The notes under the pieces are model-generated. The model was not told where the DNA came from and ran no database searches. It worked only from the letters and a program-made list of their open reading frames with translations. From IMG/VR virus record IMGVR_UViG_3300009537_003043, positions 1 through 51,909 of that record: a DNA stretch of 51,909 nt, one strand, 5' to 3'. Below, one piece after another: positions 8,220 to 24,312 of the stretch. This DNA is from a virus (lineage: Duplodnaviria > Caudoviricetes). Every line of letters starts with the position of its first letter. Position 1 is the stretch's first letter. The translations under genes were made by a program, and so were the position numbers.

Positions 8220-8263
8220 TGCTCGCCTCAATCGTTATTTGCTGTCAGCCTCCCCGCAGGGGA

Positions 8264-8297
8264 TGCCATCCCTGGCAATGGACTCGTCCCTGAGTCC
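8264..8297 (-). promoter_or_regulatory. Two tandem CsrA/RsmA-type binding hairpins
   Basis: Minus strand reads GGACUC-AGGGAC-GAGUCC and UGCC-AGGGAU-GGCA. Confidence 0.65.
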
Positions 8298-8317
8298 TCC
8301 TGCTCAACGCCGCAGGG

Positions 8318-12178: not shown

Positions 12179-12240
12179 GGTGGTTCCTTCTGTGGGGTTT
12201 GCCGTATGGCTTGACAGCCTGGTGTTGATGTGACACCCTC

Positions 12241-12269
12241 AAACTACAACCCTGTGGGGCGCTTGTCAA
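12241..12269 (-). promoter_or_regulatory. Sigma70-like leftward promoter in a divergent switch region
   Basis: TTGACA-17-TAGTTT on the minus strand; opposing TTGACA at 12211; inverted ggtgttga/tcaacacc at 12221 and 12266. Confidence 0.6.
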
Positions 12270-12288
12270 CACCTTTTTGCAGAGCCTG

Positions 12289-12501
12289 ATGAACATCTAC
12301 CCTGACACAACGCCAGAGCGGCTCAGCCTAGTACAGAACCACGCGGACAACCTCGGCATCAGCCTGTGGCGCCTGCTCAAGATGGCCGGCATGACCAAGC
12401 AAGCCAGCACCCGCTGGCGCACCGGGCGCTGCAAACCGAGCAATCTGGCCTTGCACCGGCTGCTCTCCATCACCGCCGCCGACGTGGAGCGCAGCGCATG
12501 A
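12289..12501 (+). CDS. Cro-like HTH protein
   Basis: 70 aa; LLKMAGMTKQASTRWRTGRCKP; first gene of the rightward block. Confidence 0.65.
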   Translation: MNIYPDTTPERLSLVQNHADNLGISLWRLLKMAGMTKQASTRWRTGRCKPSNLALHRLLSITAADVERSA

Positions 12502-12971
12502 CCGCCTTGAAACCCGACCAGGTGACGGTGTTGGTGGACACGCGGGAACAACGACCCTACGACTTCCCCACCATGCGCGTGCAGCCCGCCACCCTGACCG
12601 CCGGAGACTACTCTGTGCGTGGGATGGAAAACGATCTGGCGGTGGAGCGGAAGGAACTGTCAGACCTCATATCCTGCATCGGGCCCGGCCGGGAACGCTT
12701 CGAGCGCGAGATGGCGCGGCTGCGGGGGTATCAGCATCGCATCGTGATCGTCGAGGCTGACTGGTACGCCGTGCGCTCAGGCGCCTACCGGAGCGCTCTG
12801 AACCCGCTGGCGGCTACGCACTCCATCCTGTCCTGGCAGGCCCACTACCGCGTGCCGTTTCTGTTCGCGGGCGACCGGGAGGCCGGCGAGGCGGCTGCGG
12901 CGTACTTCCTGTTCACGGCGGCCAAGCACGCATGGCAACGCGGAGAAGCGTTCAGGGAAGCGCTGGCGTAA
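12498..12971 (+). CDS. ERCC4-domain nuclease
   Basis: VDTREQ, GDYS, VERKELSDL. Confidence 0.9.
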   Translation: MTALKPDQVTVLVDTREQRPYDFPTMRVQPATLTAGDYSVRGMENDLAVERKELSDLISCIGPGRERFEREMARLRGYQHRIVIVEADWYAVRSGAYRSALNPLAATHSILSWQAHYRVPFLFAGDREAGEAAAAYFLFTAAKHAWQRGEAFREALA

Positions 12972-13113
12972 TTCCCCACGGCCCGTCGTTTTTTGTTTTG
13001 ATCTTGCAGCCGGGGTTGTGATACGCCGGATTTGCGACCGCAGTCCCACCGATCTTCAGCAGCCCCACGGGCGCAGGCTCCCTCTCCTGCGGTCGCTCCC
13101 CCGTGGGGTTGCC

Positions 13114-13129
13114 CATCCATGGATGGATG
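13114..13129 (+). promoter_or_regulatory. CsrA-type hairpin over the ribosome-binding site of the csrA-like gene
   Basis: CAUCC-AUGGAU-GGAUG ends 2 nt before the ATG at 13132. Confidence 0.65.
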
Positions 13130-13131
13130 AA

Positions 13132-13317
13132 ATGCTGATCCTGACCCTGGGCCCTTCTGACACCATTTACATTGAGCACGACGGAGAAGTTGTCGAGATC
13201 ACGCGGACCATGCACCAGCGGCTCGCTTTCCACGCCCCCGACTCGTTCCGGATCGAGCGGCGTCCTACTGATGATGGCCTGCCGTCCGCGACTTTCCAGA
13301 GCCCGGAGGCCACATGA
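13132..13317 (+). CDS. CsrA/RsmA-like RNA-binding protein (divergent)
   Basis: 61 aa; MLILT start, TIYI, and RLAFHAPDSFRIER aligning with CsrA RIGVNAPKEVSVHR. Confidence 0.7.
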   Translation: MLILTLGPSDTIYIEHDGEVVEITRTMHQRLAFHAPDSFRIERRPTDDGLPSATFQSPEAT

Positions 13318-15836
13318 GCGCCCTGGTCTGTCAACTCTCTCCCCGTGATCTCGCTGAGGCCCTGGGTGGCGCGGAGCAGCGGGGCAAAAAATGGCTTGCA
13401 CTGTGCCCCGGCCACGATGACCACAATGCTAGTTTGGAGATCGAGGCTCCCACCGGCACTACGGTATTCTGGTGCCCGGTGTGCCCGGATCAGCGCGTGG
13501 TCTTCAAGCGCGTGCGGGAGACGGTGCCACACGCCTTTCAGGTCAACGGAAAACCATCCCCCACGGCCCAGCCGGCGACAATACCCCCGGCCTCGCCCCC
13601 CACTGTGGGGTCGCAATCAGAGCCGCCCAGCACCACTAAGGGCGCCTCCAGCCCACCGCCCTGGGAACGTGATGCCGAGGCTGTCTATCTATATGTAGAC
13701 GAGACCGGAACGCTGCTGTTCCAGGTGGTGCGGTTTCGTGACCGACGCGACCCGCGCTTCATGCAGCGAATTCCGCGCCCTAGGGAGAAGTGGGATTGGC
13801 GCGCACAACCCAAACCGCCCCGCACGGGCTGGAAAGTCCGCGGCACGCGCCAAGTGCTCTACCGCCTGCCCGAGATCGCACCCCGTACAGCCGTGGTGCT
13901 GGTCGAGGGCGAAAAGGATGTGGACAACCTGTGGTCCCTGGGCATCGCCGCAACCTGCAACCCGGGCGGCGCCAGCAAATGGCGCCCCGAGTACTCCGAG
14001 GCCCTGGCGGGCATGCGCGTGGCGATCATCGCCGATGCAGATCGGGCTGGCCGTGACCATGCGGGCCGGGTCGCGGTGGCACTACATGGTGTGGCGGTGA
14101 GCGTGCGCGTGCTGGAATGCCCGGACGGGCACAAGGACGTGAGCGACTGGATTGCCGCCGGAGCGACCTGGGACGACATTTCAGCCTGCCTTCGGCGGGC
14201 GCCCGAATGGACGCCATCTCCCGATCCGCCGCCAATTCCGGTTCAGCCCGAGTCCAAAGGCGCCCCCACGGCCGCGCGCCCCAGTTCCCGCGACGTGGTG
14301 CAACCCGACGACCTGCCGCCTGACCGGCCAACGATTCGCCTGGTTGCTGGCGAGTTGCCCCACGTGGTGGATGAGGCGGAGGCCGCGTTGCTGAAAACGC
14401 CAGACCACGGCGGGATGTATCAGCGAGGTGGGCAACTGGTGCGCATCATCCGCCTGGAGGCGCGCGAGAACGGGGCATTGACCCTCGCGGCCGGCACGCC
14501 GATGATCCGCCAAGTACCACGCGCCGCGCTGGCCGAAACCCTGACCATGGCGGCCGCGTGGCTCAAGTACGACGCCCGCGCCAAAGGTTGGGTGGCCAAG
14601 GACTGCCCTGAAACCGTCGCCGCCACCTACGAGGCCCGCTCCGGCGCGTGGAAACTGCGCCCGCTGGTCGGTGTGGTGGACATGCCCACGTTGCGGGCGG
14701 ACGGGTCGCTTCTCCACGAACCGGGTTACGACGCGGACACAGGGCTGGTGCTGCTGGAGCATGACATGCCGGACATTCCCGAAAAGCCGACGCACGAAGA
14801 CGCGGTTGATGCGCTGCGGACGCTCTCCTGGCCGCTCAACTCGTTCCCGTGGGCCGGCGCCACTGAATCTGAGCGCGGAACTTCCCGCTCGGTGATCCTG
14901 GCCGCGCTTCTCACCACCTGCATTCGCCCGATACTGCCCACGGCCCCGCTGTTCGCCATCGACGCCCCGGCTCCAGGCACCGGCAAGTCGCTGCTGGCCG
15001 ACATCGTGAGCTTGATAGCCACCGGCCATCCAGCGCCGGCGCTCTCGCAGGCGGCAAACCCGGAAGAAGACGCCAAGCGATTGTTTGCTGTGCTGTTGCA
15101 AGGGTCGCCGCTGGTCTGCATCGACAACATCGAACGCGACCTGGAGGGCGACGCCTTGTGTTCGATTCTGCAACAGGAAATCTACGAGAGTCGCGTTCTC
15201 GGCGTCACTGAAATGAGACAGGTCCGCACGACCAGTACGACGTTTCTTGCCACCGGGAATAACCTGCGGATCAAGGGCGACCTGGCCCGCCGGGCCATCC
15301 TGTGCCGAATCGACGCCGGAGTCGAGCGACCGGAAACGCGACATTTCACCCAAGACCCGCGCGACCAGGTGCGCGCTGACCGGAAGGAGTTGGTGGCCGC
15401 GGCGCTCACGGTGCTGCGGGCCTACATTGTGGCCGGGCGCCCGGATCAAAGCGGCGAGACCTACGGCGGGTACGAAGAATGGTCGCGCTGGGTTCGCGGC
15501 CCGCTGCTGTGGCTCGACCAAGCTGACCCATGCGCCAGCCGCACCCATATCCGGGGCGGGGACGAAGTGGCCCGCCAACTCGGCGCGATGCTGGAAGCGT
15601 GGACCGGGGCGTTCGGTTCACACACGATGCCGGTGGCGGCTGCGCTGCAAGAGGCTGATGAGCGGGTCAAACTCGCCATGTCCGATGTCGCCAGTATGCG
15701 AAACGGTGACATCGACCGACGCCGGCTCGGCAAGTGGATCGCGCGCCACGAAGACCGCATCATCGGCGGCCGGCGCTTCATGCGCGGCCCGGTTGTCAAC
15801 GGAGCGCAGTCCTGGAAGGTGGACTACGTCAACTAA
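13314..15836 (+). CDS. Primase-helicase (Zn-binding, TOPRIM, P-loop ATPase)
   Basis: CPGHDD...C; VEGEKD and DAD TOPRIM motifs; APAPGTGKS, IDNI, ATGNN. Confidence 0.88.
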   Translation: MSALVCQLSPRDLAEALGGAEQRGKKWLALCPGHDDHNASLEIEAPTGTTVFWCPVCPDQRVVFKRVRETVPHAFQVNGKPSPTAQPATIPPASPPTVGSQSEPPSTTKGASSPPPWERDAEAVYLYVDETGTLLFQVVRFRDRRDPRFMQRIPRPREKWDWRAQPKPPRTGWKVRGTRQVLYRLPEIAPRTAVVLVEGEKDVDNLWSLGIAATCNPGGASKWRPEYSEALAGMRVAIIADADRAGRDHAGRVAVALHGVAVSVRVLECPDGHKDVSDWIAAGATWDDISACLRRAPEWTPSPDPPPIPVQPESKGAPTAARPSSRDVVQPDDLPPDRPTIRLVAGELPHVVDEAEAALLKTPDHGGMYQRGGQLVRIIRLEARENGALTLAAGTPMIRQVPRAALAETLTMAAAWLKYDARAKGWVAKDCPETVAATYEARSGAWKLRPLVGVVDMPTLRADGSLLHEPGYDADTGLVLLEHDMPDIPEKPTHEDAVDALRTLSWPLNSFPWAGATESERGTSRSVILAALLTTCIRPILPTAPLFAIDAPAPGTGKSLLADIVSLIATGHPAPALSQAANPEEDAKRLFAVLLQGSPLVCIDNIERDLEGDALCSILQQEIYESRVLGVTEMRQVRTTSTTFLATGNNLRIKGDLARRAILCRIDAGVERPETRHFTQDPRDQVRADRKELVAAALTVLRAYIVAGRPDQSGETYGGYEEWSRWVRGPLLWLDQADPCASRTHIRGGDEVARQLGAMLEAWTGAFGSHTMPVAAALQEADERVKLAMSDVASMRNGDIDRRRLGKWIARHEDRIIGGRRFMRGPVVNGAQSWKVDYVN

Positions 15837-22960: not shown

Positions 22961-23041
22961 GTGTAGAGCTTGACAAACGGGGCGCAAAACGAGACTACTA
23001 CGGTAGATGCAATATCAGTAATCGCCAGATGGGGGACATCT

Positions 23042-23572
23042 ATGCCGCACCCCACAACAACCCCTCCCGACACACCACTATCCGCAAATGGCCTACCACG
23101 GCTAACCACAGGGCTGACACCCGCGCAGTGGGATAACGTGATAGACGCCGTCCGCCAGGGAGTGCCGGTAGCCACAGCCGCGCGGGCCGAGGGAGCCAGC
23201 GACACCACCATCAGTACAGCAATACACCGATGGAGGCGCAGGGAACTGCGGTCGCCAATCCTCATCGCGAGGGTGAAAGCCATCGTGCGCGCGGAGGCGG
23301 AGGCGGAGCAGGAGGCGGTACGCCTGGTCCGCGCGGCGGCAAAAAACAACGAGCGGTCGGGCATGATGTGGTGGCTAGAGCGGCGCTACCCCGATAGGTG
23401 GGCTCCTCGGCAGCGGATGGAGATTACCCAGACGGTCAAACAACTGCGGGCGCTGTCAGATGAGGAGGTCGCCAAACTGGCCCAGGAGGCGGCTCGCAGC
23501 GGCGGGGCGGCGCTGGAAATGGTACAGGGCAGGGATTACGAGGCCGCGAAAGGCGCAGAGGGGCCACAATAA
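23042..23572 (+). CDS. terS: Terminase small subunit
   Basis: HTH-like N-half, WWLERRYPDRW, LSDEEV; first gene of the late block; start uncertain. Confidence 0.75.
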   Translation: MPHPTTTPPDTPLSANGLPRLTTGLTPAQWDNVIDAVRQGVPVATAARAEGASDTTISTAIHRWRRRELRSPILIARVKAIVRAEAEAEQEAVRLVRAAAKNNERSGMMWWLERRYPDRWAPRQRMEITQTVKQLRALSDEEVAKLAQEAARSGGAALEMVQGRDYEAAKGAEGPQ

Positions 23573-24239: not shown

Positions 24240-24312
24240 GCCCTGGTAGCTCAGGTGGTAGAGCACCCGCCTCGTAAGCGGGCGGTCGGCGGTTCGACCC
24301 CGCCCCGGGATT
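24240..24312 (+). tRNA. tRNA-Thr(CGT)-like, degenerate acceptor end, no encoded CCA
   Basis: D arm gctc/gagc; anticodon arm cccgc-ctCGTaa-gcggg; T arm ggcgg-ttcgacc-ccgcc; acceptor gccctgg/ccgggat mispaired at the top. Confidence 0.8.

What the first reader, a model, noticed from the sequence alone, without database searches (positions are those of the whole stretch)
13114..13317. Phage CsrA-like protein with a canonical CsrA hairpin on its own ribosome-binding site
Seen: a 61-aa ORF starting MLILT with an AP-x4-I-x-R segment, preceded by a perfect 5-bp stem with an AUGGAU loop ending 2 nt before the start codon. Known: CsrA/RsmA binds C-ANGGAN-G hairpins and blocks translation at SD sites. 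Inference: an autoregulatory loop that also gates the translationally coupled primase-helicase (ATGA overlap at 13314), or that lets host CsrA activity control phage replication. The protein has LG instead of CsrA R6/R7 and lacks the C-terminal helix, so it could alternatively be a dominant-negative subunit.
Basis: partly seen in the sequence, partly recalled or inferred. Interest (0 to 1): 0.78.

Follow-up and report, generated by a model that had tools for sequence, protein, structure and literature searches.

The report
Divergent CsrA-like phage gene with hairpin
A tiny orphan gene just ahead of a phage's primase weakly but consistently resembles the bacterial RNA-binding regulator CsrA and has a CsrA-type docking hairpin over its own ribosome site; phage CsrA genes and CsrA self-repression are already known, so this is at most a stripped-down variant.

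Summary
A 61-aa ORF (13132-13317, +) starts MLILT and shares an ATGA overlap with a primase/helicase gene. A perfect 5-bp stem with an AUGGAU loop (13114-13129) ends 2 nt before its ATG.

The CsrA likeness is real but below every curated threshold. Pfam CsrA gives 19.6 bits against a cut-off of 27, E 8.7e-4. It is the only six-frame match in the genome, E 1.6e-4. With my own 17-sequence CsrA profile the ORF beat 20,000 of 20,000 shuffles and ranked first among 20,561 background ORFs. L2, L4, the AP motif and the R44 equivalent are kept. R6, G33, E46 and the helix are missing.

Against: the fold search did not find CsrA, while a control with a true CsrA did. No homologue exists anywhere searched, so conservation of the hairpin cannot be tested. 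GGA-loop hairpins are as common here as in shuffled sequence.

Phage CsrA genes, CsrA self-repression and CsrA control through a coupled upstream ORF are all published. This scan has also noted phage CsrA genes with GGA leaders on other DNA.

Verdict: probably a divergent, helix-less CsrA-like gene; autoregulation is plausible but unproven. Interest is modest.

The parts
12972..13131 (+). 160-nt untranslated gap between the ERCC4-type nuclease gene and the small ORF. It is the presumed leader and holds three GGA (13028, 13121, 13125).
   Evidence: ERCC4 domain E 1.9e-13 for 12366-12971. No sigma-70-like promoter or intrinsic terminator was found in 12200-13400.
13057..13112 (+). Long imperfect stem-loop predicted in the leader, just upstream of the GGA hairpin.
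   Evidence: RNAfold of 13020-13160: MFE -55.5 kcal/mol, z = -1.60, 15 of 200 shuffles fold as well. In a shorter 41-nt context its 3' arm instead pairs with the GG of the loop.
13113..13126 (.). Unique 14-bp perfect DNA palindrome that overlaps the hairpin.
   Evidence: one exact copy. With up to 3 mismatches there are 4 matches against 3.2 +/- 1.6 expected, so it is not a repeated operator.
13114..13129 (+). RNA hairpin: 5-bp perfect stem with an AUGGAU loop (or 6 bp with a UGGA loop). It covers the only SD-like GGA motifs of the small ORF and ends 2 nt before the ATG.
   Evidence: Energy about -7 to -8.6 kcal/mol; z = +0.20.
13123..13125 (+). Alternative in-frame ATG used by the database's gene call (64-aa form). 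It lies inside the hairpin.
   Evidence: P0001, 64 aa. The CsrA profiles align from the M at 13132.
13132..13317 (+). 61-aa orphan ORF, a divergent CsrA-like protein. It has a predicted five-strand core plus a short sixth strand and no C-terminal helix.
   Evidence: Pfam CsrA 19.6 bits, E 8.7e-4. PHROG 9500 E 3.7e-3. Only six-frame match in the genome, E 1.6e-4. Own 17-sequence profile: 12.4 bits against a best of 9.7 in 20,000 shuffles, and rank 1 among 20,561 background ORFs. GC by codon position 0.63/0.46/0.75, as in this genome's long genes. AF2 strands at 2-6, 10-16, 19-24, 29-33, 40-45 and 53-56.
13305..13309 (+). GGAGG Shine-Dalgarno of the primase gene, inside the 3' end of the small ORF and 4 nt before the primase ATG.
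   Evidence: It is predicted to pair with 13275-13284, but that fold is no better than shuffles (z = +0.98).
13314..15836 (+). 840-aa primase/helicase gene whose ATG overlaps the small ORF's TGA (ATGA).
   Evidence: Toprim_2 and the DnaG zinc ribbon are weak. PHROGs 29234, 6088 and 239, DNA primase/helicase. 581 homologues with E <= 1e-10, the best 41% identical.

Best explanation
The ORF 13132-13317 is a real early gene of an uncultivated 51.9-kb phage. It encodes a very divergent, minimal derivative of the CsrA/RsmA family of RNA-binding proteins. The five-strand core, the MLxLT start of strand 1, the AP turn and the arginine equivalent to E. coli R44 are kept. The basic pair R6/R7 and the C-terminal helix are lost.

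The gene is made from the same message as the primase/helicase that it overlaps.

Inferred, not shown:
- The protein acts as a dimer that binds GGA-containing RNA.
- The GGA hexaloop hairpin over its own ribosome-binding site is a docking site for a CsrA-type protein, either its own product or a host CsrA.
- Binding there would block ribosome entry, lowering synthesis of the small protein and, through the ATGA overlap, partly that of the primase.

My odds for the steps: real gene about 0.9; CsrA-derived about 0.65; hairpin used as a CsrA-type operator about 0.3.
For: Gene:
- The codon-position GC pattern matches the genome's long genes.
- It is called as a protein in the public collection.
- The antisense and alternative-frame ORFs have no family match.

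CsrA likeness:
- Pfam CsrA E 8.7e-4, with residues 1-44 on model positions 1-45 of 53.
- PHROG 9500 'CsrA-like regulator', E 3.7e-3.
- It is the only six-frame match in the genome, E 1.6e-4.
- 0 of 20 viral records with related primases give any match at E <= 0.1.
- hhalign against 9 true CsrAs gives P 0.0028 over 43 columns.
- My 17-sequence profile scores it 12.4 bits, above 20,000 of 20,000 shuffles (best 9.7). It ranks first among 20,561 natural ORFs, where the next scores 7.3 bits.
- M1, L2, L4, P37 and R44 (E. coli numbering) are identical in all 10 aligned sequences. L4 and R44 are the residues named as critical for RNA binding in PMC7652899 (passages).
- AF2 strands fall where the review places strands 1-5.
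- All ten best family-bearing Atlas hits share one family or clan. The CsrA clusters score 0.86 and 0.84, and the second is 74% viral.
- Its net charge of -5 lies within the range of the 9 true CsrAs, -7 to +2.

Hairpin:
- The GGA sits in a hexaloop closed by C-G, with 9 of 12 matches to the SELEX consensus. This is the architecture described in PMC7652899.
- Only 3 of 287 A-N-GGA-N sites in the genome have that form.

Precedents:
- E. coli CsrA represses its own translation at a site overlapping its SD (PMC7652899).
- CsrA represses iraD through an upstream ORF whose stop overlaps the iraD start (PMC5574718, abstract).
- Phage CsrA genes are documented (PMC8450108; PMC7366521). 88 of 50,697 phage records match E. 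coli CsrA. One of them, in Vibrio phage VvAW1, overlaps an exonuclease gene.
Against: - All curated cut-offs are missed: Pfam 19.6 against 27 bits; NCBIfam csrA 14 against 70.1 bits, E 0.043, ranked below an evidently spurious dihydroorotase hit.
- BLASTP against E. coli CsrA finds nothing at E <= 100.
- phmmer against PDB chains finds nothing at E <= 10.
- phmmer against 1.84 billion representatives finds no CsrA at E <= 0.001, only the protein itself and 5 repeat proteins.
- With a narrower 9-sequence profile the ORF reached only 5.4 bits, rank 6 of 20,561.
- hhalign's probability is 10.8%.
- Three of the eight columns invariant in 9 true CsrAs are not kept: R6, G33 and E46.
- The single-sequence AF2 model (pLDDT 78.6) is a compact all-beta unit. 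Its best PDB and viral matches are generic beta-sandwiches at E >= 0.11, with no CsrA among the rows shown. The same procedure on a true CsrA (pLDDT 61) put CsrA chains in ranks 1-14. That control shares 38-48% sequence identity with those chains, which helps Foldseek.
- The hairpin is no more stable than shuffles, and GGA-loop hairpins are not enriched genome-wide (56 observed, 49.6 +/- 6.8 in shuffles).
- Only 2 of 8 bona fide phage csrA genes examined have even a 4-bp GGA-loop hairpin within 25 nt of the start.
- No second GGA lies upstream within the 10-63-nt bridging range quoted: the upstream one is 93 nt away and a downstream one 62 nt away.
- The primase has its own GGAGG.
- No relatives exist, so neither the gene nor the hairpin can be tested for conservation.
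Confidence: 0.5

Rival explanations
1. The ORF is a real small beta-rich orphan protein unrelated to CsrA, and the likeness (MLILT, AP, R) is chance. It would serve the replication module it is coupled to, for instance as an accessory or regulator of the primase/helicase, or as a small dimeric DNA binder of the AbrB/MazE kind. The hairpin would then be only local RNA structure that keeps translation of a weakly expressed gene low.
For: - All curated thresholds are missed.
- There is no pairwise or PDB sequence match.
- The confident AF2 model resembles generic beta-sandwiches and not CsrA, while the control CsrA was recognised.
- The second Atlas hit (0.87) is a cluster auto-named AbrB/MazE/SpoVT.
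- The closest primase relative, L004 (48% identity), also has a small ORF overlapping the primase start, and that ORF is unrelated and family-less.
- At this score the CsrA profile should give about one chance hit per 325 Mb (my scaling of E 1.6e-4 for 52 kb). A scan of many windows will therefore meet such hits.
Against: - The match runs from the first residue over 44 of 61 residues in three libraries.
- The ORF tops 20,000 shuffles and 20,561 natural ORFs with a broad CsrA profile.
- The two residues named as critical for CsrA RNA binding are kept.
- No AbrB/MazE or other Pfam family appears at E <= 1 apart from DUF4222 at 0.069.
- The ten best family-bearing Atlas hits agree on one family or clan.
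Confidence: 0.3
2. The protein is CsrA-derived but acts as an anti-CsrA. It would form mixed dimers with the host's CsrA and cripple the strand-1/strand-5 RNA-binding surfaces, or it would otherwise titrate a CsrA partner instead of binding RNA itself.
For: - R6/R7 are replaced by L-G, and R6 is invariant in 9 of 9 true CsrAs.
- The helix is absent.
- The protein is acidic, net -5.
- Each RNA-binding surface is built from strand 1 of one subunit and strand 5 of the other (PMC7652899).
- PMC7366521 says that heterodimers between paralogues are plausible but have not been shown.
Against: - Identity to true CsrAs is only 22-34%, so a shared hydrophobic core with a host CsrA is doubtful.
- The host is unknown, and so is whether it has CsrA.
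- One true CsrA in the alignment is even more acidic, at -7.
- The R44 equivalent and two extra arginines on strand 5 (R40, R44) are kept, which argues for retained RNA binding.
- No tool result speaks for heterodimers.
Confidence: 0.07
3. The ORF is not translated. The 343 bases between the nuclease and primase genes would be a structured leader of the primase message, and the open frame would be accidental.
For: - The ORF has no homologue anywhere searched.
- It is short.
- Its SD is weak, GGA only.
- Long open frames are common in this 64% GC genome.
Against: - The codon-position GC pattern is that of real genes, unlike the upstream in-frame extension.
- The exact ATGA junction is typical of coupled genes.
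- The public gene call includes it.
- The CsrA likeness starts at its first codon.
Confidence: 0.06

Closest known systems
Phage-encoded CsrA/RsmA homologues (PMC8450108; PMC7366521; PHROG 9500 'CsrA-like regulator')
   Same: Both are small phage genes of about 55-75 aa that start ML(I/V)L and carry the AP...R motif. Some lie in replication or recombination modules, for example the VvAW1 gene that overlaps an exonuclease gene.
   Different: The published phage copies are described as highly similar to bacterial CsrA (PMC8450108). The 8 I fetched are easily found with E. coli CsrA (45-100% identity over the whole set). This one gives no BLASTP alignment to E. coli CsrA, misses Pfam's cut-off, lacks R6/R7 and the helix, and has no relatives.
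Self-repression of E. coli csrA (Yakhnin et al. 2011, as reviewed in PMC7652899)
   Same: A GGA site overlaps the regulator's own Shine-Dalgarno region.
   Different: E. coli has four sites in its leader. Here there is one hairpin site. The nearest other GGAs are 4 nt away in the stem, 93 nt upstream and 62 nt downstream. Binding is untested.
CsrA repression of iraD through a coupled upstream ORF (PMC5574718, abstract read)
   Same: The upstream ORF's translation start carries the candidate CsrA site, and its stop overlaps the start of the downstream gene.
   Different: In iraD the upstream ORF is a leader peptide and the downstream SD is sequestered. Here the upstream ORF would itself be the regulator. 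The predicted sequestering of the primase SD is no better than shuffles (z = +0.98).
High-affinity CsrA/RsmE RNA sites (SELEX consensus and hexaloop hairpins, PMC7652899)
   Same: GGA in a six-nucleotide loop closed by C-G, on a short stem, with 9 of 12 consensus positions.
   Different: The ACA element, fully conserved in SELEX, reads CCA here. The stem has 5-6 contiguous pairs, whereas most SELEX hairpins had four or fewer.

Membership tests
CsrA/RsmA family (Pfam PF02599; NCBIfam TIGR00202) | Profile score at or above the curated cut-off | tested here: not met
   Pfam 19.6 bits against 27. TIGR00202 14 bits against 70.1. The Pfam E-value of 8.7e-4 and the per-genome six-frame E of 1.6e-4 are nevertheless significant.
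CsrA/RsmA family (Pfam PF02599; NCBIfam TIGR00202) | N-terminal strand 1 starting M-L-x-L with L2 and L4 (L4 is critical for RNA binding) | tested here: met
   M1, L2 and L4 are identical in all 10 aligned sequences. The role of L4 is taken from PMC7652899.
CsrA/RsmA family (Pfam PF02599; NCBIfam TIGR00202) | Conserved arginine of strand 5 (E. coli R44), preceded by the A-P turn | tested here: met
   R43 and P36 of the ORF align with R44 and P37 in every sequence.
CsrA/RsmA family (Pfam PF02599; NCBIfam TIGR00202) | Basic residue(s) at positions 6/7 of strand 1 | tested here: not met
   The ORF has L6-G7. R6 is invariant in 9 of 9 true CsrAs.
CsrA/RsmA family (Pfam PF02599; NCBIfam TIGR00202) | Five consecutive beta-strands followed by an alpha-helix | tested here: inconclusive
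   Five strands are predicted at the family's positions, but a sixth strand replaces the helix (topology). The model comes from a single sequence.
CsrA/RsmA family (Pfam PF02599; NCBIfam TIGR00202) | Fold match to solved CsrA/RsmE structures | tested here: not met
   No CsrA chain appears among the Foldseek rows for the ORF's model; the best E is 0.11. A true CsrA treated the same way hit CsrA chains at ranks 1-14. A monomer model cannot show an interdigitated dimer, so this is weak evidence.
CsrA/RsmA family (Pfam PF02599; NCBIfam TIGR00202) | Interdigitated homodimer | not testable with these tools
   No usable prediction was obtained. It needs a structure or solution measurements.
CsrA/RsmA family (Pfam PF02599; NCBIfam TIGR00202) | Specific binding of GGA-containing RNA | not testable with these tools
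   Needs a gel shift or footprint.
Self-repressed csrA-type leader | GGA site overlapping the regulator's own SD, presented in a hairpin loop | tested here: met
   The hairpin 13114-13129 holds the only SD-like GGAs, 5-11 nt before the ATG.
Self-repressed csrA-type leader | More than chance, or conserved in relatives | tested here: inconclusive
   Genome-wide there is no enrichment (56 observed, 49.6 +/- 6.8 in shuffles). The canonical hexaloop form is found at 3 of 287 sites. No relatives exist to test. 2 of 8 known phage csrA genes have a weak equivalent.
Translational coupling of the iraD type | Stop of the upstream ORF overlaps the start of the downstream gene | tested here: met
   ATGA at 13314-13317.
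Translational coupling of the iraD type | Downstream SD unavailable unless the upstream ORF is translated | tested here: inconclusive
   A stem pairing 13271-13284 with 13304-13315 is predicted, at -17.6 kcal/mol, but z = +0.98.

The most novel reading that the evidence does not exclude
A phage of an uncharted lineage carries a minimal CsrA core: five strands, no helix, and no strand-1 arginines, with extra arginines on strand 5 in their place. With the GGA hairpin on its own start site it would form a self-contained translational switch. The switch would set the dose of the overlapping primase/helicase, and so the timing of phage replication, and could be read by host CsrA as a signal of host physiology. 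It would show how far the CsrA fold can be stripped down and still work. It would also be a first case of CsrA-type control wired directly to a replication enzyme.
Probability: 0.12. Interest if true: 0.65.

Novelty: new variant of a known kind. Interest (0 to 1): 0.35.

Why it matters
If the protein is a working CsrA derivative, it marks the outer edge of the family. It falls below every curated threshold, has no helix and lacks the basic pair on strand 1, so similar genes are being missed in virus annotation.

Its place, overlapping a primase/helicase gene, would tie a post-transcriptional regulator directly to phage replication.

The general ideas are already in print. Phages carry CsrA genes (PMC8450108, PMC7366521). 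CsrA represses its own translation (PMC7652899). CsrA can act through a coupled upstream ORF (PMC5574718). This scan has also noted similar cases on other DNA. The gain is therefore an unusual example, not a new principle.

Tried and rejected
Searches for relatives that found nothing:
- The word-indexed search returned only the protein itself.
- phmmer over 1.84 billion representatives returned the protein itself and 5 long repeat proteins. I judged these spurious after reading them.
- Pattern scans of IMG/VR gave 14 stretches, none a relative.
- tblastn against 50,697 phage records gave only E >= 0.3 hits, mostly under (opposite strand to) or beside T7-like terminase genes.
- phmmer against 16,719 ORFs from 161 primase-related loci gave a best E of 1.0 (163 loci were held and L001 and L003 were left out).
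- The Pfam CsrA search of 20 related viral records gave 0 of 20.
- A look-up by sequence in this scan's notes found nothing.

Host inference failed:
- The terminase matches 6 phage records at <= 30% identity over <= 49% of its length.
- The putative capsid protein has no match.
- Primase relatives are spread over many phyla.

Ideas considered and rejected:
- Operator idea for the 14-bp palindrome: rejected, because it is unique.
- Genome-wide regulon idea: not supported, because GGA-loop hairpins equal the shuffles. CANGGANG is only mildly enriched, 48 against 37.6 +/- 5.7, and that count includes SD-like sequences.
- My two home-made gene callers were too crude to count hairpins at true starts, so I dropped that statistic.
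- Rfam at gathering thresholds found only a tRNA.

Jobs that gave no usable answer:
- Homodimer prediction: no verdict. It is not used as evidence either way.
- Sequencing runs: none was listed, and no RNA holder was listed.

Supplementary tables of PMC8450108 and PMC7366521 (lists of phage CsrA genes) were not seen. They might hold divergent members like this one.

Full report
WHAT THE WINDOW IS

The window is a whole viral record of 51,909 bases, rated 100% complete. GC is about 64%. It is far from any cultured phage. Its terminase matches 6 of 50,697 phage records at 30% identity or less, and its putative capsid protein matches none. The host is unknown.

THE OBSERVATION

- The ORF at 13132-13317 (+) has 61 codons. 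It starts MLILT and carries A35-P36-x4-I41-x-R43.
- Stem CATCC (13114-13118) pairs perfectly with GGATG (13125-13129) around the loop ATGGAT. The stem ends 2 nt before the ATG.
- RNAfold picks this register in 36-nt and 141-nt contexts and also closes the outer A-U pair of the loop.
- In a 41-nt context a competing helix pairs the loop's GG with an upstream CC run.
- The ORF's TGA overlaps the ATG of an 840-aa primase/helicase.
- The gene call held in the public collection starts 9 nt upstream, inside the hairpin. All CsrA profiles align from the M at 13132.

IS THE ORF A GENE?

GC at codon positions 1, 2 and 3 is 0.63, 0.46 and 0.75. That is the pattern of this genome's long genes. The in-frame upstream extension does not show it (0.76, 0.54, 0.70). 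The antisense and alternative-frame ORFs have no family match. I take the gene as real, with odds of about 0.9.

IS IT CsrA-LIKE? EVIDENCE FOR

- Pfam CsrA scores 19.6 bits, E 8.7e-4, with residues 1-44 on model positions 1-45 of 53.
- PHROG 9500 'CsrA-like regulator' gives E 3.7e-3.
- A six-frame search of the genome with the Pfam model finds this place alone, E 1.6e-4.
- 0 of 20 viral records with related primases give any match at E <= 0.1.
- I fetched 9 true CsrAs: E. coli's and 8 from three bacterial genomes. I aligned them with and without the ORF. Identity is 22-34%. M1, L2, L4, P37 and R44 (E. coli numbering) are identical in all ten.
- hhalign gives P 0.0028 over 43 columns.
- A profile built from these 9 plus 8 phage CsrAs scores the ORF at 12.4 bits. 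That is above all 20,000 composition-preserving shuffles, the best of which reached 9.7.
- The same profile ranks the ORF first among 20,561 natural six-frame ORFs from the window and 240 loci. Its stop-to-stop form scores 9.1 bits and the next ORF 7.3.
- Single-sequence AF2 (pLDDT 78.6) predicts strands at 2-6, 10-16, 19-24, 29-33 and 40-45. The review places strands 1-5 of the family in the same order.
- The protein language-model look-up puts two CsrA clusters at 0.86 and 0.84. The second is 74% viral. All ten best family-bearing hits agree.

IS IT CsrA-LIKE? EVIDENCE AGAINST

- Every curated cut-off is missed. In NCBIfam a plainly spurious dihydroorotase hit ranks above csrA.
- BLASTP against E. 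coli CsrA, phmmer against PDB sequences and phmmer against 1.84 billion representatives find no CsrA.
- A narrower 9-sequence profile gave only 5.4 bits, rank 6 of 20,561.
- hhalign's probability is 10.8%.
- R6, G33 and E46 are invariant in the 9 true CsrAs and are not kept.
- No helix is predicted.
- The AF2 model matches only generic beta-sandwiches in PDB and BFVD, with a best E of 0.11.
- I ran a control. A true CsrA folded the same way (pLDDT 61) put CsrA chains at ranks 1-14. The negative result therefore carries some weight. However, the control shares 38-48% sequence identity with those chains, and a monomer model cannot show an interdigitated dimer.

Weighing both sides, I put CsrA descent at about 0.65.

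THE HAIRPIN

- Its form is that of a high-affinity CsrA site as described in PMC7652899: a GGA in a hexaloop closed by C-G, with 9 of 12 consensus positions (passages read).
- It is no more stable than shuffles.
- 56 of 1809 GGA sites in the genome lie in such loops, against 49.6 +/- 6.8 in shuffles.
- The canonical hexaloop form occurs at 3 of 287 sites.
- The chance that this particular GGA is so presented is therefore roughly 1-3%. That is suggestive only.
- Among 8 true phage csrA genes, 3 have a GGA-loop hairpin of 4 bp or more within 60 nt upstream, and 2 have one within 25 nt. Such a hairpin is not a hallmark of phage csrA genes.
- Conservation cannot be tested. The closest primase relative (48% identity) has a different, family-less small ORF overlapping its primase start.

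COUPLING

The ATGA overlap is real. However, the primase has its own GGAGG 4 nt before its ATG. The predicted stem that would hide it is no better than shuffles.

COMPARISON WITH WHAT IS KNOWN

- Phage CsrA genes are documented. PMC8450108 used the Pfam model at E < 1e-4 and called the phage proteins highly similar to bacterial ones (passages).
- PMC7366521 found them in 30 of 2517 phage genomes (passages).
- I found 88 of 50,697 records with E. coli CsrA as the query.
- Self-repression of csrA at its own SD is described in PMC7652899.
- Repression of iraD through a coupled upstream ORF is described in PMC5574718 (abstract).
- This scan's notes hold 27 findings with these words on other genomes. 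They include a divergent phage CsrA heading a replication operon and one in a probable Planctomycetota phage. I treat these as leads and did not test them.

VERDICT

The gene is best read as a divergent, helix-less CsrA-like variant whose self-control is plausible but unshown. It is not filed as a family member, because the curated score and the fold test were not met. Interest is 0.35.

Noticed in passing
window 8252-8298 (- strand): Three adjacent hairpins lie in the leader of the gene that starts near 8220-8231 (-). Two have A-G-GGA-N loops 18 nt apart, and the third covers a GGGGAGG. The fold has z = -1.82. One of them is among only 3 canonical hexaloop hairpins in the genome.
   Followed up: partly
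window 23027-23041 (+): A 5-bp hairpin with a GGGGA loop directly abuts an in-frame ATG at 23042 of the ORF 22970-23572. It is no more stable than shuffles.
   Followed up: partly
window 24240-24312 (+): The phage carries one tRNA-Thr gene (anticodon CGU). It is the only Rfam match at gathering threshold.
   Followed up: no
L004 2702-2995: The closest primase relative (48% identity) has an unrelated 97-aa ORF, with no Pfam family, whose stop overlaps the primase GTG. A small ORF coupled to the primase may be a recurring layout with interchangeable content.
   Followed up: partly
G021 (genome of locus L186): This planctomycete genome has 11 separate matches to the CsrA model, all above Pfam's cut-off. 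That is an unusually large paralogue set.
   Followed up: no
L253, L254, L258 401-772: F116-type Pseudomonas phages encode 123-aa proteins with an N-terminal CsrA core and a long extra C-terminal part. They are annotated variously as 'bacteriophage control infection protein', 'transcriptional regulator' or 'carbon storage regulator'.
   Followed up: no
L257 401-613: In Vibrio phage VvAW1 the CsrA-like gene overlaps the end of an exonuclease gene and the start of the next gene. A known phage csrA therefore also sits inside a DNA-metabolism module.
   Followed up: no
P0002-P0006: The whole-library phmmer search returned five long repeat proteins with E down to 1.9e-19, built from 4-14 weak repeated stretches. 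This is an example of summed-repeat false positives for a short query.
   Followed up: yes
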